Source: Moniliella sp. 'wahieum' (lineage: Eukaryota). Taken from it: a stretch of 64,000 nt of DNA. Positions 1 through 16,581 of the stretch are shown here, one piece after another. The notes beneath the pieces are model-generated. The model made no database searches. It saw only the letters and a list, made by a program, of their open reading frames with translations, and was not told where the DNA came from. The stretch's first letter is position 1, and every line of letters starts with the position of its first letter. A program made the position numbers and the translations under genes. Location of the stretch: the NCBI GenBank assembly GCA_003971905.1, contig RSEE01000007.1, positions 62,001 to 126,000 of the forward strand, read 5' to 3'.

Positions 1-689
1 TGCAGTGGCCACAGTGAGTGGGACAGATACGTACATGAGATGCAACAATGCTCATATGGCAAACGTCGCAAATCAGGGTCAAAACGGAGGTCTGCAGAAT
101 GAGGTTCTTGAGTTCAGAGATGCGCGAGTCGGTGGCAGAGAAGCCTGTCAAGGCGCGGCGGAGGGTGACGTAGAGCGCGATGGTTTCCAGCAAGTCACAG
201 CTGACGATGCAGCAGCTCATGACCAGCACTGCGGGCTGGACCGTGTCGAGAGCATCAAACCGCTTGAGAATACCACAGCCGACCATGGTGGCCGTGCAGC
301 CAACGATGCCACCAAAGGCCAAGAAGAGAATGATAGAGGTGAGCCACCACTGGCGCCGTAGAGAGTGAATCCTCCATGCCAAAAAGCATTCGACAATAAA
401 GCAGCTAATTGCGCCCGACTCCATCGAGCCAATAAAGCTGGAACCAATATAAGCCAGATATTGAGGCTCTCATAGTGCCTCACAAGCCACCCCGACAAGG
501 AATTGCAAGCGCACACCGTGTTCGTGATCTCAGCCATGGCTACAAGCGCGACGACGAGCTTCAAGCCCCAGGGGTCACGCACAAACCTGTCCAAAGCAGC
601 CACAACTGGCAAATGGTAACGCCAAAGAGGATGAGGTTGACATAGAGCCCAATCAGCAGGTAGCCTGTGGTATTGGCGACAGACACCAT
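1..689 (-). CDS. Multi-pass membrane protein, DUF6534-like basidiomycete family (3' part runs off the window; frameshifted)
   Basis: Joined minus-strand frames read MVSVANTTGYLLIGLYVNLILFGVTICQ..RFVRDPWGLKLVVALVAMAEITNTV..VECFLAWRIHSLRRQWWLTSIILFL..CDLLETIALYVTLRRALTGFSATDSRISELKNLILQTSVLT. This matches the G-x-LLIG / F-xx-D-xxx-LK / WRI / TGF-xx-TD pattern of the family. Confidence 0.7.
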
Positions 690-1429
690 GGTGCAGGTAC
701 GAGAAGAGGGAGAGGCAGGGGCCGGGGCTGGCGGTACAAAGAGCTGGAAATATGAAGAGGGATCGTGATGAGGTGGTGTGTTTAGGACGTTGTCGTCGAG
801 GAGCGTGGAGAGTTGGTGGGGGTGGTTGGGAAAGGTAAGGGGGTCGTCATGAGGGTGGAGCGAGTTTTAACGTTAGCCCCCGACGAGAGGACCCCAATGG
901 TCGTGAAACGGAGGAAGAGAGCGCAGAAGAGTAAGCTGTGTAAGTTTGATGCATGATATTCTTAGTCAGTGACCAGTTCGCTCCCGTCTTGTAGGTGGCC
1001 AGCACTACTTACCGGTTGCTAGGTACTCGTTATCCCCGTCTTATTGCGTGAGAGAGAGCTTGAGGCCTGGCTTCGAGATTGAGAGAGGACTCAGAGTACT
1101 GAGGCCGAGTACTGGCGGTACTGAGTACTGACGCCTTGAGCGAGCCTTCGGTGGCCGCATCCATTAGTCAGTGGCGACAAGGAGCCACAGAGGTGCCACC
1201 CTCAGGCCTCAACGTCCTCGTCGTTGCAGCCGCCAAGCCCCAGACCCTGTGGGGCGTGGCCACACTGGTGGGGGCAAACGCCGACCTGCGCCCGCTCGTG
1301 GAGCTTGGTGGAGCGCATCCTGCATCCAGGCCGGCGTATACACCCCGATCGCAATATTACACGCTTCAAATCTCAGATTCCAGATCTCACATTTCACGCC
1401 TCACAGCCTTCGCAGAAGCCTCTGTCGCA

Positions 1430-1470
1430 CATCGACCCTCTGTATGTATCGACCCTCTGTATGTATCGAC
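1430..1470. repeat. 17-bp direct tandem repeat (ATCGACCCTCTGTATGT), about 2.3 copies
   Basis: Read directly from the sequence. Confidence 0.9.
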
Positions 1471-1739
1471 ATGAGTGCAACATAGTCCGCGGAGCCGACG
1501 CCGGCGGCTTCAAGAAACTGAAAAGGCTCAGGCGCTCAGGCAAAACCTTGGCAACCTCCTGCTTCAACGTTCAACCCCGCCGATCCAGTACGTATATTAT
1601 TCCGTACTTCGCCCAGGTGGGGATCCAGACAGAGAGTATAATACAGCCCGTTACTAGTTACTCGGAGAGGCTCAGCGAGACTAGGCGGCTCAGCAGCTCA
1701 GCACCCCCTGCGCCTGAGAGGACCTGAGGATCTCAACGA

Positions 1740-2020
1740 GTAGTACGTAGTACTGGGCCTCAGGGCCTCAGGGGCTCGGGGCTTGGGGTAGAGTTGTGAC
1801 CGGTGTGACCTGAGGCTTCAAGCTTCACTAGCTTCACTGAGGTACTGAGGACTCGCCTGGGCGGCATGAAGCTTGAAGCTTCAAGATGAAGCTTGAAGTT
1901 TGAAGCTTGAAGCTTGAAGAGCTTGAAGCCTCGTGGCGCGTGACGCGTGACTAGCATAGATCGGATCATCGATCATCGATCATCAGGATCGATCATCTCG
2001 ATCGTCAACGCGTCAACCTT
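1740..2020. repeat. Cluster of 7-bp-period T[C/G]A + 4-bp-palindrome repeats (AGCT, CGCG and TCGA cores)
   Basis: TGAAGCTTGAAGCTTCAAG, GCGTGACGCGTGA, GATCATCGATCATCGATCATC. Confidence 0.85.
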
Positions 2021-2939
2021 CTGAGGGATCACGAAAAGTGATAACCCATACCTCTGTGGTGCGTTCCAGCAGATCCGCGGGAGCGAGAATGGTGGCTGTG
2101 GGGTGCGGAACTTTTGCGGGATGCTCCAGGAGGAGGCCTTACTAGTTACTTGAAAAGGCCCAAGGCCTAACCGGCCTAACCTCCTAAGGGCCAGCCGAAC
2201 ATATTTGGCCGCGGCCTCTCGTTAAAGATGATCGATGACTCTGACTGCCAGACACCGAGAAGGTAATTAGACCGAAGCGGCAAAATCATGAACCAGGGGC
2301 AAGGGGTCGGAGTTAATCCCAATCATCGATGGGCATCATGTGCATGATGCATGATGCATTGAACTATTGACTATTGGGTAGTGGATGTTTGTGACGCGCG
2401 ACGGGTGATCGAGCCTCCTCGCTCAGGCTGAGTGTGGTGCATGTGGCGTCACACTGGCGTAGTGGCATGGTGACACTGGTAGCCCAAACCCGGTTCTTTC
2501 GGTGTCTTCCTTCAGGTATTCCTTCCTGGAAGGCAGGACAGGGGCAATGCAATTCACTACCAGCTGCAAATCTGGGATCCGATCCTCCAGTTCCCAACTG
2601 AGCGAATGTGGAGAGGCGGAATGGGAGATGAGATCTGAGAAGGAGCACGGAGTGCCAGACGGAGCCTGCGGGTGCAATAACAGACTGTGGGTGGAAGTGG
2701 CAGAGATGTGAGAGCGCCCGAGTCCAACTATGTTGACACCTGCACTAGCATCCATTCCCTATCCCGCCAGCCACGCAAAAAAGCAGGGAACTATAGTAAC
2801 TCTGGTAATAAAACGAGTAACTACGAACTTGTACCTAATAGTAATGTCTTGTCTTCGTGGTTGACAGAACATCCGCGGGGGGCGCAGAGCATATGCCCTC
2901 TACTGTCTCTCACTGCTGCCTCCCACAAAAAGGCTCCTA

Positions 2940-3450
2940 ACCCTCAGGGCCTGAGGCCTGAGGTCAGGCCTAATGCACGTGTAACAACGATACCCCACAC
3001 GCAAACATAGTGACTCAACGCGAGGAACTAGCATAGCTAGCAACTAGTAACTAGTAACTAGCAGCGCGTAACGGGTGTTAAGCTTTAAGCTCTAAGCCGC
3101 ACTAACCCGAACAACGTACAACGCACTCCGACCAAGCCACATGTGTCACACGTCATGCATCGCGCATCACTTGCATCGCGCATCATGCATCACTAGTCAC
3201 TATTAGTGCTACATGTTGCATGGCCATGTCACATATATGTCACAATGCCACTAGCGTTAGGCCCCTGGCCTCAAGCCAAAAGCCTGTGGCGGCGGCTTAG
3301 CGCCTTAAGCCAAGGCTTAGTGGCTTAGGCCTCAGCCTGAGGTTTCCCGAGGGCTTGAGTACTTGGGTACTACATACTAGACTTCGGGATGATCGATAAG
3401 ATTATCAATGGCCGTCGATTTTCGACGTCGATGATTCATCGATGATATGA
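2940..3450. repeat. Cluster of 7-bp-period palindromic repeats (GGCC, CTAG, TGCA, CATG and TCGA cores)
   Basis: CCTGAGGCCTGAGG, AACTAGTAACTAGTAACTAG, CATCATGCATCAC, TCATCGATGA. Confidence 0.8.
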
Positions 3451-4349
3451 TAGCCTCTCTGCTCTTACCAGAAGTTATCTCTCGGACAATTCCCTTTCGA
3501 GGAAGTGCTACTGGATGATGTTCTTATCTCTGCACAATCGCGCGATCACGTCTTAACGAGCGTTGCATCTATATAGAGGGATCTTGTAGCAATCCTGTGG
3601 TAATATCGAACAAAAAACACTTTCTTCCCTGAGCTCTGTTGAGCGCTGGCGGAGAGCAAAAAGTAGCGTTTTTGTTGCATAGCGGAGGGTGCTCAAGTGC
3701 TCATGGCGCTCAGGCCAGAAAAGAGTTTTGTATACCGAAGAGGGGAATGAAGGATGTGGCTCCAAGGAGAGGGGGTACCGCCGAAGAGTAGAGGGAGCGT
3801 CCGCGCAGATAAGAGGGTGATGATGCTTATATATCACACGCAGGAGATGTGGCGTGATTAGCGCATCGCCCCAGCATTGAAGAGTTGTGCATGACAACTG
3901 TGGTAGAAGAGGTTACCGGTTATCGTGGTAGTAGCGAGAGAGAAGGGTCACCGGTCACCGTGACCTTCTGTGATCATCGATCACCTAGCAGCTTCATCCG
4001 TATATTAGTCTGTTCCAACGGGGTGGGGGCTTGGGCCTTCGTCTCAGGTTCAGTATAGCTATCTATTCAAAAGTAGGTTTCCTTTGTTCTTGTAACACAA
4101 AACTTACGCCTCTGGCTTTGCCTTGCCATCACCTGTATCTCGCACTCGCTTCAACTCATCTCGATGCTCCTCTTCCATCTCTTCAACGTATTCGCTGTCT
4201 CTCTGTATTATAGAGACTCTGCTGTGTCTTGCCTGCGTTCTGGCCTGCATGTGTCCTACAAATCCACTATCCCTGTCGAGCGGAGGGTTGCTTTCGGGTG
4301 GGAACCCTACATTTTTTCGTATCACGTAAAGCATTGCACCACAAAACTC

Positions 4350-6314
4350 TGATGCATGCATCTGCTCGCCCACCCCGCTGTTCCACCCACACCCACGCGA
4401 CCCCTTGGATGCAGATGAATGCCACCGGCAGATCAGCACCTCAAGCACTGGCCTCACCAGCCACAGCTGCTACCAACAGCAGCAGCTTGCTCACGAGCAG
4501 CGACGGGTCTTACGTTTGCTCACCTCCTCGTGGCGTGCATTCATGCGCCAGCTCTACCAGCTCCAAAATACCCCTCCAGGAGCACCTGCCTCGGATGACG
4601 CCGGTGCCCCACGACCTCAAGTGACCTTGATCCTGTGGGTATCCTTCCTCCTGAGATGCTATCGTGGGAACTGTGTAGCATCTTCGTACCTGCTCCCACC
4701 TGCATTCACACATTAATCGCTCTCCTGTCACGCTGTGTGCATCAAAACGAGAACTGGATTCGTCGGGGCGCATACTGACTCCTGTATCTCTTTTCTCTCT
4801 TTTCTCGCGGTACAGTGGAACTCCCGGTCCTCACCAGGTTGCGCTAGGTCTATTCCACAACAGCGCCCAAGGGCAAGTGAAGCTCGGTACGTGTCGCTGC
4901 CTCCTTCCCAGCTGAATCCACGCCATCCATCCACAGCGCTGCAGGAGAAGCCCATACCGCACGCAAGCAGAACAGATATGACTGACTTGTATGGTCTACT
5001 CCCACATCATTCGCCGATCGCTTCCGCGGCTGCATGGATTTACTCATTTGCAGCGCGTTGGGTAGCTGTAGTCAAGGAGATTCACAACAGCCTCTGCCGA
5101 GGGATGAGCATTACTATCCGTGATCTGTTCTATTCGGATGTTCCACTATTTGGCAACCAACGCACCGTTGAACGCATCGTCCAGCATCTTCAGGTGGCCT
5201 TCCAAGTGCAGCGCCCCGCGCTGGGCGTGGGGCCGCCCCGAAAAGTCTGTTCCACGGGCCAGTCCACATCGTTCCCCTCGGCCCGCGAATAAATGCACCC
5301 CTACCCCCCTGCCGCCTCAACACCGTCCCGGATCCCCTCCTTCCAGCTGAAGTCTATCTTCCCGCGCCGACCTTGATCCCAGATGATGGCGCCATTTCCC
5401 ATTTGGAAGCCTGGGCGCCCATCGAATGGATCTTGGTCATCGAGAAGGAAGCTGTTTTCCACACCATGGCTGAGACCCGCCTCGCGGCTGGCGTGCCAGG
5501 TCTCCTTGGTCCCGGCGTCGTTCTCACTGTATGCATATACCCATTATTCCCCCCCTCCCCCGAGACTGGCCGCGCCGCGTAAGTATACAGTGACGCCTGA
5601 CCTTTGCATTCTGTGTTGTGTATATTTAGGGACGAGGGTACCCAGACTTGGCAGCTCGTGCGTTTCTTGCCAACCTACAGACTACCTTCCCCTGGTCAGT
5701 GTACCGTCTCTCCCAGACCCTGCGTGGGGTGATGAGAACGTCCGAGTACTGAGTGCCTCGATTGCTTGTGTGCATATTCCATTCTCCTCGATTCTTCGGC
5801 CGATAGCGCTCCCACTTTTGCCTTGACCGATGGCGATCCACACGGGCTAGACATTGTGCGCGTATACCGTTCTCATCTTGGCACGGCACAGACCGTGCAC
5901 TGGCTCGGCCTCCGCCGCGCCGACGCGCCCACTCCGGCTCAGGTGCAAGGCAACCACATCTCTAACCACGTTCCGTCGCCGACGGCGTGGCTGCCGCTGA
6001 CCCGCCTCGATCGACTCAAGGCCGTATCTTTGTTACGCGACCCTCTCACCGTTGCTGCTGAGCGGTACGTGCATGCACCTAACACCTAAGCCATTTGTTC
6101 CCTGTCGCGCATACAGGAGGGTCACTGATCGGAGTTTCCTTCCCAGTCTGGAGCTGGGACAGATGCTATGGGAAGGAACGAAGTGCGAATTTGAGATTAG
6201 CAATGATCCACTCACTTTGCCTACAAGCGGCAGTACCAGGAGCAAGGATTGGAGCGGCCATCCGTCGGCACGGCTGGTCGTTATGCGCATGGCCGAGGCG
6301 CTTGCACGGATCAG

Positions 6315-6353
<39 letters not shown>

Positions 6354-6447
6354 ACACCAACACCAGCACCAGCACCAGCAACAGCAGCCAACCGCCTCCT
6401 GGCCCGCTTGTCTTCTCACTTCCTGTCCAGCCCTTAAAACGGGGTGA
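4350..6447 (+). CDS. SPO11: Meiotic recombination protein Spo11 (Topo VI-A family), multi-exon; start approximate
   Basis: Winged-helix motif TIRDLFYSD with the catalytic Tyr, then FGNQRTVERIV. Toprim motifs ILVIEKEAVF, GRGYPDLAAR, LTDGDPHGLDI and WLGL. C-terminal LELGQMLWEGTKCEFEI. GT-AG introns separate the motifs. Confidence 0.9.
6316..6389 (+). repeat. (CAACAG)n/(CACCAG)n microsatellite encoding poly-Q/QH at the Spo11 C-terminus
   Basis: Read directly; in frame with the final Spo11 exon. Confidence 0.85.
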
Positions 6448-7071
6448 ATAAATGGCGTGTGTGCATATTATGTTGCTTGTAGATTATGGCGTAGATCGGG
6501 GCCAAAGTGGGTGGGGGGGGAGGGTACAGGAGATAATCTTCATGTTGGTATTTGAATGTGGGGTCCATCTCGAGCAGGTAGGAAGTTGAGCCCACCCTCT
6601 GTCCCTGTCTGTCCCTGACCTCTGAGCCGCCTGGCCTGTCTTTCCGCCCGATGCTGTTCGGCACCCTTTGCTCCCGGCTACTGTTTTGCTGTCCTGGTTT
6701 TTTGGGCTGTGCCGCCCGGTCGCGCGCCAGGCTGAAGCAGACGGGTACGAGGTACTGTGCCTAGTGGCGACCAGGCTGGCGGTTGTAGCGCGTGCTGAAG
6801 CAACCGTACCTATATGTAGGTTGCGGCCCCAGCTCCATCTGTGTCTCGATCATTGTCATTGCCATCATTGTCGTTGCCATCTGGATCCAGATCCTTCATC
6901 TCGCTGTCTTGGTTCCTGTCAGAGCGCAGACGGGGTAAGCACGTGCAGGAGAACACTGGGCACGGTGCATGTGGAGCTCAGAAAGACTCGATCTTTACTG
7001 AGGTACTGAGATGAGAAGTCATGAGCTGATCAGGCGCGCAAGCACAGCAGGACAGTGGGGGGGAGGTACGT

Positions 7072-7571
7072 CTAGGCGCGCCAAAAGAGGAACGCATAGT
7101 CACCCAAATCTGGAAAATGGGCGCTCGTTAGTGGTTCCTTATACAAAAACAAGTTGAGGGGAATGTGCTAGGTTGGGCGACACGACGTACAGAAGTAAAT
7201 GAAGTGCCGCACCTCTGTTCCCGAGCGCCATCGAAAGACGAAGAGTGAGTCAGTAAAGTGTCCAGCCCGCCACGTGTCTTGGAAGCAAAGGACGCCGACG
7301 AGAGACGTACCATGTGTACAATAGGAACCGAATGCACGCCCCACCACGCTCTGCCACGTAGGACCAAAGAGCGCGTCGAGGCGCTTCTTGGTAAAGGCAG
7401 CCATGTCCTTTTCGAGGGTGTGGGTGCGCAGCGCTTCTTGTGCAAGCGCAATTGCACTGGCCTGCATCTCGGCCGTCATGTCGACGTTCTTGATCACTGC
7501 CCGCAGTGGGGGGCATCAGGTGCGACCACGCCTTGTGGCGTGCCCTCGGCGCCGGCTTTCTCGCTGCTCAT
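7072..7571 (-). CDS. DYN2: Dynein light chain LC8 (two introns; start approximate)
   Basis: VIKNVDMTAEMQASAIALAQEAL..EKDMAAFTKKRLDALFGPTWQSVVGRAFGSYCTH | EVRHFIYF | LGDYAFLFWRA-stop (TAG at 7072-7074). Confidence 0.9.
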
Positions 7572-7722
7572 CAGAAGCGGTGGTGGCGATGGTTGGCGTG
7601 TCCATGGCCCAGACATGCCGGCAGCGCTTCGCCCAAGGTGGGGCCGGCGGGCGCGCTACGTAAGCACGCTAGTGCCCTAGCGCGGTGCTGATCCGCCCCG
7701 GTAGATCCCGTGCCAAAAAAAA

Positions 7723-7794
7723 TGGACGAACAGGGAATTGAACCCCGGACCTCATGCATGCTAAGCAAGCGCTCTACCCCTGAGCTATCCGCCC
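7723..7794 (-). tRNA. tRNA-Ala(AGC), intronless
   Basis: GGGCGGATAGCTCAGGGGTAGAGCGCTTGCTTAGCATGCATGAGGTCCGGGGTTCAATTCCCTGTTCGTCCA folds as a cloverleaf with the G3:U70 Ala identity pair, followed by a poly-T Pol III terminator. Confidence 0.95.
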
Positions 7795-8010
7795 TTTGAT
7801 ACGTCAAAAACCAACACTGTTTCCATATCACGTGCGCCTCTTCCACCATCATCCACTCCTATCTTTTCTTGCGCTTCTTGAGTCCCCATCGGAGCGTCCT
7901 CGCTCACAACGGTGGACAATCGAAGAAGTGGGGGCTGGTGGATGGCATTCGCCGAGCCTCATGGGCTTGCACTTTGCACGATGGGTTGAAAAGAGACATG
8001 AAACAAAAAG

Positions 8011-8110
8011 TGATCGAACCCGGGATCGAACCGGGGACCTTACGCGTCTCAACGAGACCTGTTGCTCCAGGATGTGAAGCGTACGTCATGACCAGCTAGA
8101 CCATCCGACC
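8011..8110 (-). tRNA. tRNA-Val(CAC) with a 26-nt intron at 37/38 (8047-8072)
   Basis: GGTCGGATGGTCTAGCTGGTCATGACG-TACGC TT CAC A [intron] C GCGTA-AGGTCCCCGGTTCGATCCCGGGTTCGATCA, followed by a T-run. Confidence 0.93.
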
Positions 8111-8349
8111 GTGATGCGATGTACAGTGACGCACGATGGATTAGACCACACAGCAACCTAAAGTCCTCACGTCGGAGCCACTTCTCTTTGAAAACTGTAT
8201 ACACCGCTAGATTCACTAACCACGCCGTGTCTGCTCAATAACAGTAGCAACCAATGTTACACATGTATGGGACTGCCCAAGAGGCGATGCCACGCCGACC
8301 GATGGAAACGGGGGTTGAGGGAATAAAGCACGCGCGTAGCAGCACTTGA

Positions 8350-9866
8350 TCACAGGGAGGGGGTAGGCGAGAACTGAGGACTTAGGCAAAGGGAGGGGGG
8401 GTTAAAAAATGGTGACCTGGACCCCCTTGATATCGTGGCCCAATCGTCGAGCCAAGGAGAGGGTATGAGGGACGAGCACGCGCCGCATATCTGCCTGCTC
8501 GTGTCGGTCGCGCGTACGTCCGGAGCGAGAGAGGGGGGTTGGGATGCCGAGCGAAAACGTCGGGATGTGAGGGTGGTGGTGGTCGCCGGATGGTGAGAGC
8601 GGGGATGTGCGTGACCAAATAGTCGGCCCAACGACTGTTTCCGGTGTTCATGATGCCCGTGGGGCGACAGACGATGAGCAGGCGTGGTAGCTCCTTGAGA
8701 AACATGCGGAAAGGGGAACCCACTCCCTTCGCGCTCACTGCCGCGGGAAGAAGAGCGGGCGAGTGGGCTGCTGGGTGTTGTGTGCCCCGAAACGGGCAAC
8801 GGAGTGAGCCAGTCGGCATGGTCGTGCTCGTCGAGATCCGAAGCAAAATGTAATTGGGGCCCTGCTGTGCCGGTCTGGGGCGACCAATCCACATCGTTGA
8901 TCACGACAATTTCGCTATAGTGCTTGGCGTGCGCCAGACGCACAATCGCTTCCGCCAACGTGTCCCCGTCTTGCGCTTGCTGCCACTCTGTCGCCACATA
9001 CAATCCCGCCTTGTCTGGGGCACTGACTTGCGCGTCCAGTTCCCCAGCCAAGACAATGAGCCGATCAAGAAGTTGCTCGCGCGCCTCTTCCCCCGCCTCA
9101 TCCTCGATCCGCAGATCGTCCGTCAGCTCCAACAGTTGTTCAGTGCCAGAGAGAACAGAGGGCGTGGCACTCCCCTCACCACTGGGAAAGGAGCCAGGTG
9201 CATGGTGGGACGAATGGATCATGGAGGCAAAGATACTTCCGGCACGAGAGTGCGTCGCTCGGTCTCGCAGCGAACGAATGGAGTCGGAGGAATTTCCGCC
9301 CTCTCGTTCGGGGCTTTGGGCACGCACTGTGCTCAGCAAGCTAGTACGCCGCGACCGGTCTCCCGGTGAGGTGGGGCGGGAGATGGTGGTTTTTTGCCGC
9401 TGCGAAAAAGTGTGGTGGAAAGAGGGATGTAGGAGGCGGGGAGGATGGAGACGCATTCGACATTCACGCTTGGTAACGACGCGGGGGAGGAAGAGTCCGA
9501 ATCAGCCAAGGGAGAGTTGGTGCTGGTCAGGTACTCGGCCAGCTCGTGACCGACGGACTGGAGCGCTTGAATGGAGCGGGAGTGCTCCAAGTCGAGCAGG
9601 GAATGGCGCTCATCCTCGGCGGATGGTGGGGGAAAGGGGGAGAAAGGGGGTGGGGAGGACGTTGGCGGGGGAGGCGAGTGGGAGGGTGAACGGGAAAAGT
9701 GGCTATGGGGGGTGGAGGGGCGGCTGGTGTAGGCCGGATGGACATGATGGCGGAAGACGGGCTGGTAGACGAGGAGCACCGAGCGCGGACCCGGGGCTGG
9801 CGCTGGGCGGGTGGAGGGGGCGCGGGTGGCGATGGGCTTGGTGAGGGGGAAGGAGATGCCGGTCAT
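8350..9866 (-). CDS. Hypothetical Ser/Pro/His-rich protein with weak universal-stress-protein-like segments (one frameshift near 9420)
   Basis: Two overlapping long ORFs (9333-10088 and 8350-9456) join into MTGISFPLTKP..; the segment DTLAEAIVRLAHAKHYSEIVV resembles a USP helix/strand. The family call is weak. Confidence 0.55.
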
Positions 9867-10029
9867 GGCGGTGGCAGAGCGTATGGCCAGGGCGGCTGCA
9901 TGGAGGCGGAGGGGCAGAAGGAGCAGAGGACCAAAGCGCGCTTGGAGACCTCCCACACGAGCTGCCGGCCGCCGACGGGGCAGGCGAGTGGAATATAGCA
10001 TCGCCAGATTGCAGATCGCGTCAGACGGT

Positions 10030-10240
10030 ATGACGCGCATGACGCATGATGTGTGATGCATGATGCATGAGCTGGACGCACCACGCAACTAGCAACGAGT
10101 CACCCCTTGCGCGTCACGCGTCACGCGCATCCAATTCGTACGTTTGCAGGCCAAACTCACAACCCTAGCCGCGCCATGTCAATGTCACATGTCACATGTC
10201 ACCAGCCACCCTGGTCACTAGTCAGCCACTAGTCACCCCT
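10030..10240. repeat. Cluster of 7-bp-period palindromic repeats (TGCA, CGCG, CATG and CTAG cores)
   Basis: TGATGCATGATGCATGA, CGCGTCACGCGTCACGCG, TGTCACATGTCACATGTCAC, GTCACTAGTCA. Confidence 0.85.
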
Positions 10241-10679
10241 CCTGTGCTTTGCCTCCTCCGCTGCCTCGCCCACAACACCCAGCCCTCCTCATCCACACCC
10301 CAACAGCGTCAGCCGCCCCGTGTCAGCCTCGCGACCTCGATCTGAGCTGCCGCTCCTCGCCTCACCGCGTCACGCCCTCAGCGCAGCGCGTCTGTTATGA
10401 GCGCGTCAGTCTCAACTCGCGCCTGGCGTGTGCTGAGGAGGGTTGCATGGTTGCAACCTGCCACATTCAACACGAGCCCACCTCTCCAGTCGCGCCCCAA
10501 ACGCTCCAAATCACGCACGGGCAGAGCAGCTGCTCAGTCTGAGCCAGTCTGCACTACCGTCTCCCCTTGTAGCCCTTCCTAGTAAGACCCCCATCCCGCG
10601 CGTCCATATCGAGTATCTCAGTGTGCGGACAGACATGGGACAGGGGCACGGGCTCTATAAGTCCGCCCTCCCGACCCGT

Positions 10680-11720
10680 TCCCCGTCCTGCGGGTTGCGC
10701 CCTTTCTTCCGTTCGTCACTTTGTTTTCATCTTCTCTGTCTGGGTCCGTATTCGCATACTTCCACTGCCTGACCTTGGGCGCCACCCTGTTTAGTATGCA
10801 CTTTCGTTTCGTTCTTGGTCCGTAGCCGGGTAACCCACAGTCTCCTAAAAAGTTCTTGATTGGAAAACCCACACTCTCTCCCTCATATGGGCAGAGAGCC
10901 CTCGCGAACTAGTTTGATAGGGGGCTCAAGAAACCCCTCGCACGGGTCTCAGTCAGAGCCTGGGCGCTACTGGCCCAGCGCCGAGCTGAGCCCTCGCTGA
11001 GGGCGCAAATGTCCCTCTCGGATGCGTTCATACATCTCAGGGCAGAGGCCCCACTACCAACATCAAGCACACCACAGTGCCTGATGTTCAGACGCATGAG
11101 TCCTGAGAGAGTCCCCTTGCGAATTGGACCAACGGAATCCCACTCGGACCATTTGACCAGTAGCACTGAACTATAAACTAAGCCACAGTCTGCCAAACTC
11201 CTTTTCATACCGATCCACCCTTCGTGTGTTCGGGTCCAAATGTCCAGAGCCCCCTCCCTTTTCGCACCTATAACCCTCTGCCACCTCGACGACGCCTTGC
11301 TTGAACAGTTTGTCATTGCAGTGCCCTCAGCCTGAGCGCTGCGGCTTAGCCAACACCCTCAAGCCTCCTCTCCGTTCTGGGTGCACGCGAGTGATAATTG
11401 CTAGCTCTAGTTCATAAGCCTTGGCACGCTCGGGCCCTCAGGGGGTGTCGACTGATGAGCCCACACCTGCTCAAAAGTACAGATATCATACAACAACACG
11501 ATAATGAAAAGACAGTGAAACGCGAAGTCCATCTCAAGTTGGCTCGTCCGCGTTTGGGTGAACCGCCGGACAAGGCCCTAGAACGACGCCTCTGGATTGT
11601 TCCAGGAAATGGGAATGTCCTGGTTGCAGTTCTTGGCCGGCACCGCACCCACCGTGACATTCATTCCCTGACGAGAGTGCTGCGTAAGGCAAAACACAAA
11701 ACATTATTATGATTCACAGT
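10680..11720 (+). ncRNA. Candidate ~1 kb structured non-coding RNA (identity unknown)
   Basis: TATAA at 10656, no credible ORF, and a series of nested helices whose imperfect pairs are G-U on the + strand (10896-10927, 10935-11003, 11059-11088, 11143-11249, 11317-11343, 11518-11555, 11556-11650). Confidence 0.45.
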
Positions 11721-11987
11721 GTAATAATTCACCCAGGGCGGGCAGAATGCCAACTAATAGGGGTACCAAACCCATCGTCCGCTTCCTTTCCATGTCCCTA
11801 TGCCATCTGAGTCGCCCTTTGTCCATTCTCTCAACCGGACAGGACTTGAATAGATTGGAAAGAGGGGAATGGGGTCCCGGCAGTGGGGCAGAAGTGCAGG
11901 CAAGTGGGGGGGGAACCGTGGCTGGCAGTAGCAGCGACAGGTAGGGTTGTTGGGCCCAAGGGACCTGCCGCAGCCGGAGAGCGGTAG

Positions 11988-12208
11988 GGTTTCCAGCGGT
12001 TTCCTACCGTTTCCAGCGCTTTCCAGCCTTGGTTTCCAGTCATTTCCTGTCGTTTCCTGCCGTTTCCGGCCGTTTCCTGCCGTTTCCGGCCGTTCCTGTC
12101 GTTTCCTGTCGTTCCTGTCGTTTCCTGTCGTTTCCTGTCGTTTCCTGTCGTTTCCTGTCGTTTCCTGTCGTTTCCTGTCGTTTCCTGTCGTTTCCTGCTA
12201 TTTCCTCC
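11988..12208. repeat. 10-bp minisatellite (TTTCCTGTCG)n, about 20 copies with degenerate edges
   Basis: Read directly; perfect core at about 12120-12190. Confidence 0.95.
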
Positions 12209-12615
12209 CGTTACCAGCCGCTCGCACACCCACCGGCACCGGTTCACTTCCTACTTGTTTCCTGAGCGCTCAAGCTGAGCGCCACGCGGGAGGGTCTGGT
12301 GGGTTTGCACGGAATGGGTAGTACGGTACTACAGACACATTCTGCAGATTTACACCGACTCTATAGCTGATCCTCAGCAACAAACAGCAAGGGCGTTGAG
12401 TTGAGACTCAACTTTGAGTTCAAGTTCAGGTTCAACGCCCACACCGAGCGCCGAGCAGAAGTGGATTGGACTACACGAATAGGGAACGTTTTGAGGCAGC
12501 ACCACACCACTCCTCATGTGCCCGCTGCCATGGGAAGGACAGGGCGCGGGTGGGGTGGGGCAGGACGAAGAGACGGGAGGCGCAGCAGCACAGCTGTTGG
12601 TGTTCAGTTCAGGGT

Positions 12616-16581
<3,966 letters not shown>

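What the first reader, a model, noticed from the sequence alone, without database searches (positions are those of the whole stretch)
10656..11760. Unannotated ~1 kb highly structured RNA candidate behind a TATA box (telomerase RNA is one hypothesis)
Seen: no credible ORF, TATAA at 10656, then dense nested helices. These are GAGCCCTC/GGGGGCTC (10896-10927), a long hairpin 10935-11003 (CCCTC/GAGGG, CTCAG/CTGAG, CTGGGC/GCCCAG), AACATCA-GCAC/GTGC-TGATGTT (11059-11088) inside a CTCTC-GGA-TGCGT junction, 11143-11249, TGCAGTGC/GCGCTGCG (11317-11343), AAACGCG/CGCGTTT (11518-11555) and a multi-way junction at 11556-11650. There is also possible long-range pairing of TCACTTTGTTTTCAT (about 10716) with ATGAAAAGACAGTGA (about 11504). 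Several imperfect pairs are G-U on the + strand, which favours selection on a + strand RNA. I found no U1/U2/U3/U5, SRP or RNase P/MRP signature. Inference: size and architecture fit a fungal telomerase RNA. The canonical UAACCCUAA template is absent, but CCTATAACCCT (11267-11277) would template a variant TTATAGGG repeat. GTAAGG (about 11684) and CTAAT (about 11755) could be spliceosomal 3'-end signals.
Basis: partly seen in the sequence, partly recalled or inferred. Interest (0 to 1): 0.7.

Follow-up and report, generated by a model that had tools for sequence, protein, structure and literature searches.

The report
Probable fungal non-coding RNA, not telomerase
Behind a clear promoter in a fungal genome lies about 1,000 bases that make no protein and fold only moderately well; it is very unlikely to be the telomerase RNA, which has a much better candidate elsewhere, but its front part may be a real RNA that pairs with ribosomal RNA.

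Summary
Telomerase RNA is not supported. Three contig ends carry plain TTAGGG. The proposed template is mutated in the second allelic copy (C40), which also has a 320-bp Helitron-like insertion inside the unit. There is no Sm site. What remains is a non-coding stretch with a TATA box and pyrimidine-rich start, single-locus, with fewer allelic substitutions than its flanks (3.5% vs 5.7%, p = 0.011), concentrated in the 5' third. New lead: three 11-13-nt segments at 10749-10823 are antisense to one 67-nt stretch of the organism's own 25S rRNA (0 of 2,857 shuffles, 1 of 113 real background windows), without C/D or H/ACA boxes. No expression data, no homologue, no covariation.

The parts
10656..10661 (+). 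TATA box (TATAAG)
   Evidence: identical in the C40 allele, no substitution 10650-10759; highest downstream pyrimidine content of 32 TATA-like sites
10700..10743 (+). Pyrimidine-rich tract, inferred transcription start region; 10706-10730 can pair with 11504-11527
   Evidence: sequence; predicted pair probabilities 0.92-0.99; start site itself not measured
10744..10794 (+). Possible 51-nt intron (GTCCGT, branch CCTGAC at 10768, TTTAG)
   Evidence: motif scan with recalled consensus; signals identical in both alleles and 2 substitutions fall inside it; splicing not shown
10749..10759 (+). 11-nt segment antisense to own 25S rRNA 663-673 (one G-U)
   Evidence: intact in allele
10799..10823 (+). 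Two abutting segments antisense to own 25S rRNA 696-708 (13 nt) and 642-653 (12 nt)
   Evidence: first intact in the allele, second carries a C.A mismatch there
10895..11130 (+). Folded core: multi-branch domain with hairpin 10935-11003 and arm 11035-11108
   Evidence: z -4.55 on +, -3.38 on - (borders chosen after looking); holds under 3- and 4-mer shuffles; no substitution 10874-11015; allele z -3.1 with another outer helix; 0 of 130 pairs with compensatory change
11267..11277 (+). Proposed telomerase template, rejected
   Evidence: C11275 is G in the allele; paired with 11439-11446; telomeres are TTAGGG
11483..11484 (.). A|T site where the C40 allele carries a 320-bp Helitron-like repeat
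   Evidence: 54 matches from 40 of 373 candidates scored; 5' TC, subterminal hairpin, 3' CTCG|T shared by the 5 copies inspected
11537..11755 (+). 3' domain closed by a long imperfect helix (11537-11562 with 11728-11755)
   Evidence: z -2.69; two allelic changes keep pairs as G-U but allele z only -0.98
11684..11760 (+). GTAAGG, A/T-rich tract (11690-11730) and ACTAATAG: possible 3'-end or splice signals
   Evidence: GTAAGG and ACTAATAG identical in the allele; chance-level motifs, function inferred only

Best explanation
A single-locus RNA polymerase II non-coding gene, not telomerase RNA. Inferred mechanism: the TATA box at 10656 starts a + strand transcript near 10700 that runs about 1,050 nt to an A/T-rich end near 11730-11760. 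The working part is the 5' 430 nt: a weakly paired leader (10700-10890) followed by a folded 235-nt domain (10895-11130) that could bind protein and protect the RNA. The 3' half is a loosely constrained tail that tolerates a transposon. The only target I can point to is the pre-rRNA: the leader can pair with three pieces of 25S rRNA 642-708, as a placeholder or folding chaperone of the snR190 kind would. Shown: non-coding, promoter-like motif, reduced allelic divergence, local folding, the antisense matches. Inferred: transcription, ends, splicing, any function. I put about 0.45 on the non-coding gene and about 0.10-0.12 on rRNA pairing as its job.
For: TATA plus the most pyrimidine-rich downstream tract of 32 sites. 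37 substitutions in 1,071 nt against 73 in 1,273 nt of non-repeat flanks, Fisher p = 0.011; substitution-free runs 10874-11015 and 10650-10759 are the 2nd and 7th longest in 1-12700. Core z -4.55, centroid equal to MFE; only 1 of 136 background 236-nt windows reached -4.5. + strand folds better than - over the whole length. 6 of 9 substitutions in pairs with P>=0.8 keep the pair. Antisense cluster: 36 nt covered by runs of 11 or more; 0 of 14,709 shuffles of the 201-nt leader and no other of 1,276 background windows; 0 of 2,857 shuffles of the whole stretch; no second such cluster for that target in 753 kb held. Two copies only in the genome.
Against: No expression evidence. No homologue in 80 metagenome RVB2 loci or in 20 kb upstream of the older adaptin duplicates on C4 and C16. 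Whole-length folding is matched by 3 of 40 background windows. 0 of 130 pairs covary; over all MFE pairs only 8 of 18 substitutions keep the pair. 11016-11483 diverges at the local average (4.7%) and 8.7% of 1,071-nt windows in 1-12700 are as conserved. The core folds on both strands and holds CTNAG at 21 per kb against 2.9 in the window, so a mutational palindrome habit may explain it. The rRNA statistic was designed after seeing the matches; total matches are not enriched (11 vs 11.8 expected), 1 of 113 other real 1.1-kb windows equals it at 11 nt and 3 of 113 at 10 nt, a 7-nt version is unremarkable (62 of 636), one segment is mismatched in the allele, and no C/D or H/ACA arrangement supports it.
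Confidence: 0.45

Rival explanations
1. Ordinary spacer DNA between a divergent gene and the 3' end of RVB2. The TATA region is a real or chance promoter element that at most gives an unstable transcript; hairpins come from this genome's habit of making short T-N-A-centred palindromes and duplications.
For: 3.2% of 120-nt windows reach z -3; CTNAG seven-fold enriched in the core; a 7-nt insertion at 10828 in the allele and 7-nt arrays at 10037-10202; no strand bias in wobble pairs; Helitron-like insertion in one allele; no homologue.
Against: Lower divergence than flanks; core survives 4-mer-preserving shuffles at z -3.5; best TATA context in the window; antisense cluster.
Confidence: 0.38
2. 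A spliced non-coding host transcript that releases a very divergent or oversized snoRNA from an intron starting at 10818, as fungal snoRNA clusters do.
For: Two GTCCGT donors, branch-like sites at 10768, 11080, 11451, 11667, 11753; basidiomycete cluster snoRNAs are intronic in non-coding hosts (PMC3596301, passages); 10812-10823 resembles a guide for the U18 site (position mapping recalled); earlier notes report off-consensus boxes in this genome (not tested).
Against: No Rfam snoRNA near cut-off; no guide of more than 10 nt next to a D-like box, no H/ACA pocket of 12 bp or more; the base after the U18-like segment starts AGCC, not a D box.
Confidence: 0.1
3. A strongly diverged, oversized nuclear RNase P RNA.
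For: 5' end pairs with 11504-11527 like a P1 helix; this genome's MRP RNA is about 600 nt; basidiomycete P RNAs are known to escape descriptors (PMC2996960, passages).
Against: No CR-I or CR-V match and no P4 partner on either strand with recalled patterns; no Rfam hit.
Confidence: 0.04
4. Telomerase RNA with a variant template giving TTATAGGG repeats.
For: Size, TATA box, a long-range 5' helix followed by a separate 3' domain resemble the general layout; GTAAGG and ACTAAT kept in both alleles.
Against: Telomeres TTAGGG; no TTATAGGG doublet in 124 loci held, including three contig ends; template mutated and paired; no Sm site; better candidate on C3/C61.
Confidence: 0.02

Closest known systems
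Ustilago maydis telomerase RNA UmTER (PMC9564094; read part 2 of 7 and passages) and Malassezia TER (PMC12506658; read parts 1-3 of 6)
   Same: About 1 kb non-coding stretch between protein genes in a basidiomycete; possible long-range enclosing helix and separate 3' domain.
   Different: No 1.5-repeat template, no AUUUUU Sm site, no NDK1 or Emi1 next to it; folding much weaker than the C3/C61 candidate.
Yeast snR190 chaperone snoRNA (PMC8536666; passages)
   Same: Several long antisense elements to separate places of 25S rRNA, no evident methylation role.
   Different: snR190 is a box C/D RNA binding domains I and V; here no boxes were found, the target is 642-708, and neither expression nor pairing is shown.
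Non-coding snoRNA host genes of fungi (PMC3596301; passages)
   Same: Polymerase II unit without a long reading frame, with intron-like signals.
   Different: No recognisable snoRNA with boxes C and D in the putative introns.

Membership tests
Telomerase RNA | Template of about 1.5 telomeric repeats matching the organism's telomere | tested here: not met
   No 8-mer permutation of CCCTAA in the stretch; telomeres TTAGGG; motif mutated in allele
Telomerase RNA | Single-stranded template | tested here: not met
   11273-11280 predicted paired with 11439-11446, P 0.9; prediction only
Telomerase RNA | Sm site near the 3' end (AUUUUU in UmTER, AAUUUUU in Malassezia) | tested here: not met
   No A-T4-6 on either strand of 10600-11900; motif
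Telomerase RNA | Pseudoknot with U-A triples and CR4/5 with P6.1 | not tested
   No pseudoknot prediction run; no covariation possible with two alleles
Telomerase RNA | Binds TERT and is needed for telomere length | not testable with these tools
   Needs experiment
RNase MRP RNA | CR-I/CR-V P4 pseudoknot, Rfam RF00030 match | tested here: not met
   No hit here; the family is found at four other places, three over the cut-off
Nuclear RNase P RNA | CR-I and CR-V forming P4 | tested here: not met
   Recalled patterns find neither strict motif; genome-wide RF00009 search rang nowhere, also not in controls, so it is uninformative
Box C/D snoRNA | Boxes C and D near the ends with a guide of 10-21 nt directly 5' of D or D' | tested here: not met
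   One TGATGA (11453); best guides next to D-like boxes are 9-10 nt, chance level; strongly off-consensus boxes cannot be excluded
Box H/ACA snoRNA | Hairpin pocket 13-17 nt before an H or ACA box pairing around a U in rRNA | tested here: not met
   0 pockets of 12 bp or more; shuffled rRNA gives 0-6
U3 / U14 / snR30 processing snoRNAs | Antisense elements to their 18S sites plus family boxes | tested here: not met
   Best matches 8-9 nt to 18S 1-30, 25-45, 78-100, 785-850 (site ranges recalled); no Rfam hit
Transposon or LTR | Many copies, terminal repeats | tested here: not met
   2 of 2 candidates are the two alleles, while the same search finds 373 candidates for the insertion

The most novel reading that the evidence does not exclude
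A polymerase II RNA without C/D or H/ACA boxes that chaperones early large-subunit assembly by pairing with three separate pieces of 25S rRNA 642-708, two of them through one continuous 25-nt guide that staples 642-653 to 696-708, with a folded 235-nt domain as protein platform.
Probability: 0.1. Interest if true: 0.75.

Novelty: new member of a known kind. Interest (0 to 1): 0.3.

Why it matters
As it stands it is one more unannotated fungal non-coding locus and a useful negative: it removes a false telomerase RNA candidate and backs the DJ-1-linked one. If the rRNA pairing were real, it would be a ribosome-assembly RNA outside the two snoRNA classes, acting on a part of 25S rRNA for which I saw no chaperone RNA described (one literature search, listing only, and one search of this scan's notes; not exhaustive), and it is directly testable by deletion and compensatory rRNA changes.

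Tried and rejected
Sequencing runs: none was listed, so expression could not be examined; this is no evidence either way. Rfam on window and allele: nothing near cut-off. RF00009 genome search: rang nowhere, uninformative. Telomerase synteny of relatives: no template of 8 nt or more in the six NDK loci examined of 18 matches (about 1.5 kb flanks) or within about 1.5 kb of the three Emi1-family matches, nor in 10 kb around two of them. A TAACCCTAA near the DJ-1 gene on C151 is lost in its allele on C48, rejected. Metagenome RVB2 loci (best 80 of 568 relatives): best identity 78%, no shared neighbours; one 24-nt match in L045 lies in a pyrimidine-rich antisense coding stretch with no flanking likeness, judged chance. 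Older duplicates of the adaptin gene on C4 and C16 (80% DNA identity) keep neither RVB2 nor this stretch. Joined antisense pattern in viral contigs: 0. Scrambled rDNA pseudogene: pieces are not colinear with rRNA. Protein-coding gene broken by assembly errors: not supported. Upstream gene product: no homologue. Bacterial promoter scan not applicable. [quoted passage not shown] Supplements of PMC9564094 and PMC12506658 (TER alignments, P6.1 consensus) were not opened and could sharpen the test of the C3/C61 candidate.

Full report
Setting. The window is G000:C7:62001-126000 of a 69.5-Mb fungal assembly in 223 contigs. The stretch lies between a gene of unknown function on the - strand (ends of frames 8350-10088) and the 3' end of RVB2 (TIP49 domains), in the order SPO11, dynein light chain, tRNAs, unknown gene, this stretch, RVB2, beta-adaptin. 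That the organism is a smut-related basidiomycete comes from earlier notes of the scan and my own recall of gene likeness; I did not test it. The stretch has one second copy, on C40, 91-94% identical along with 28 kb of flanking genes; I treat it as the other allele. It is the only comparative material I found.

Observation. All motifs quoted are present at their coordinates. The stretch is non-coding by Pfam, by a Markov coding score and by its indel spectrum: 9 of 16 allelic indels are 2 nt or longer, against 2 of 18 in RVB2 and adaptin. Rfam gives nothing near a cut-off in either allele. Folding is moderate: z -1.72 for 10690-11689, -2.83 on + and -1.41 on - for 10690-11760. Of 41 background windows of the same length one overlapped the stretch and was dropped; 3 of the other 40 have an equal or larger energy gap and 5 come within 1 kcal/mol of it or exceed it. 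Two positive controls from the same genome score -6.9 (RNase MRP) and -5.5 (telomerase candidate). The signal is local: 10895-11130 gives -4.55 on + and -3.38 on -, about -3.5 on both strands under 4-mer-preserving shuffles, and 1 of 136 background windows of that size reached -4.5; its borders were chosen after looking. A second domain, 11537-11755, gives -2.69 but -0.98 in the allele. The claimed G-U bias is absent in a symmetric count (28 G-T, 36 A-C). Among 37 substitutions 18 fall in predicted pairs: 8 keep the pair and 10 break it; among pairs with P>=0.8, 6 of 9 keep it. No pair changes on both sides (0 of 130), which two 96%-identical sequences can hardly show. CTNAG words are 21 per kb in the core against 2.9 in the window, and earlier notes describe a T-N-A-centred palindrome-making mutation habit in this genome; a 7-nt insertion at 10828 in the allele fits it. 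Part of the hairpin signal may therefore be mutational.

Telomerase test. (TTAGGG)5 occurs three times, at the starts of C8 and C92 and the end of C88, in telomeric polarity and without variant units. The control pattern read backwards matched 43 times, so the count alone means little; the positions carry the argument. No TTATAGGG doublet occurs in the 124 loci held (not a whole-genome search). The stretch has no 8-mer permutation of the telomere unit and no Sm-type site. The proposed template reads CCTATAACGCT in the allele and is predicted paired. Published basidiomycete TERs have UAACCCUAA and an AUUUUU site in Ustilago (PMC9564094, part 2 of 7 and passages) and a species-matched template with AAUUUUU in Malassezia (PMC12506658, parts 1-3 of 6). 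One, on C3, has CCTAACCCTAA about 120 nt after a TATA-like motif and ATTTTTG about 685 nt further on; both are identical in its allele on C61. The C3/C61 RNA itself remains a candidate, not a proven TER.

What speaks for a real unit. The TATAAG has the most pyrimidine-rich downstream tract of 32 TATA-like sites in the window. Substitutions are 37 in 1,071 nt against 73 in 1,273 nt of non-repeat flanks (p = 0.011; the 225-nt tandem array was left out of the flanks), and the runs 10874-11015 and 10650-10759 have none. The deficit is confined to the 5' third; 11016-11483 diverges at the local mean of 4.7%, and the allele carries a 320-bp Helitron-like repeat at 11483/11484. So either the 3' half is dispensable or that allele is damaged. 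A possible 51-nt intron (10744-10794) and an A/T-rich end region are read from recalled consensus only.

Other families. RNase MRP is elsewhere. RNase P was not located genome-wide, but that search rang nowhere; recalled CR-I and CR-V patterns do not match here, though basidiomycete P RNAs can deviate (PMC2996960, passages; PMC1636426, passages). With the organism's own rRNA I found no H/ACA pocket, no guide longer than 10 nt beside a D-like box, and no more than 8-9 nt against the U3, U14 and snR30 sites.

The rRNA-antisense lead. Three segments on the + strand, 10749-10759, 10799-10811 and 10812-10823, pair without gaps (one G-U each) with 25S 663-673, 696-708 and 642-653. The last two abut, forming a 25-nt run that would staple two rRNA pieces 42 nt apart. 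Taking the best 80-nt target anywhere in the rRNA, 0 of 14,709 shuffles of the 201-nt leader reach this at a threshold of 11 nt, 7 at 10 nt and 76 at 9 nt; among 1,276 real windows only this one does at 11 nt, 2 at 10 nt and 20 at 9 nt. For the whole stretch: 0 and 17 of 2,857 shuffles, but 1 and 3 of 113 other real windows. Total matches are not enriched (11 vs 11.8), the 7-nt version is weak (52 of 1,539 shuffles, 62 of 636 windows), the statistic was built after seeing the data, GGTCCGT may simply be a splice donor, and the allele has a mismatch in the 12-nt segment and a disrupted 14-nt match to 25S 322-335. By recalled numbering 10812-10823 would guide the U18 site Am649, but no D box follows. 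It works like, at most, the snR190 placeholder (PMC8536666, passages); it is not a member of that class on the tests run. I rate this lead at about 0.1.

Relatives. None found: 80 metagenome RVB2 loci share no neighbour and one chance match; the older adaptin duplicates on C4 and C16 lack the stretch; the scan has no look-alike note.

Verdict. Observation partly confirmed; telomerase reading not supported (0.02). Most likely an unannotated polymerase II non-coding gene with a constrained, folded 5' third (0.45), closely followed by ordinary spacer with mutation-made hairpins (0.38). Novelty: new member of a known kind. Interest 0.3, carried mostly by the testable rRNA-pairing lead.

Noticed in passing
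G000:C3:357405-358218 (L031:5406-6219, +) and allele on C61 (L036): Telomerase RNA candidate divergent from DJ-1: TATA-like motif, CCTAACCCTAA at L031:5528 identical in both alleles, ATTTTTG about 685 nt downstream, z -5.5; the older duplicate on C33 lacks the template but shares a 25-nt block near the 3' end.
   Followed up: partly
G000:C40:528740-529059: 320-bp non-autonomous Helitron-like repeat, A|T target, TC start, subterminal hairpin, CTCG end; 373 candidates in the genome.
   Followed up: partly
G000 C38 and C9 (L016-L019): RNase MRP RNA of about 600 nt, twice the model length, in four copies arranged as two inverted pairs about 23 kb apart.
   Followed up: no
whole genome: (TTAGGG)5 matched only 3 times, all at contig ends, but the control pattern read backwards, (GGGATT)5, matched 43 times; where these arrays lie was not examined.
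   Followed up: no
window 11989-12220: Array of about 23 ten-base units (GTTTCCTGTC type), 15% divergent between alleles, no other copy among loci held.
   Followed up: partly
window 8350-10000 (-): Gene of unknown function divergent from the finding; no Pfam, sequence or Atlas relative for the part searched.
   Followed up: partly
window about 12750: Allelic divergence drops from about 4.7% to about 1% at this point and stays low to about 21700, like a homogenised tract.
   Followed up: no
G000 C4:508437-509059 and C16:448873-449595: Older duplicates of the beta-adaptin gene (80% DNA identity) without RVB2 upstream: the assembly holds both an allelic (about 94%) and an older duplicated layer.
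   Followed up: partly
window 8010-8105 (-): Intron-containing tRNA gene, invariant between alleles, missed by ARAGORN and by Rfam at gathering score; read by eye.
   Followed up: no
window 12616-14120 (-): RVB2 is split by several frame breaks in both copies at different places, consistent with an error-rich assembly.
   Followed up: partly
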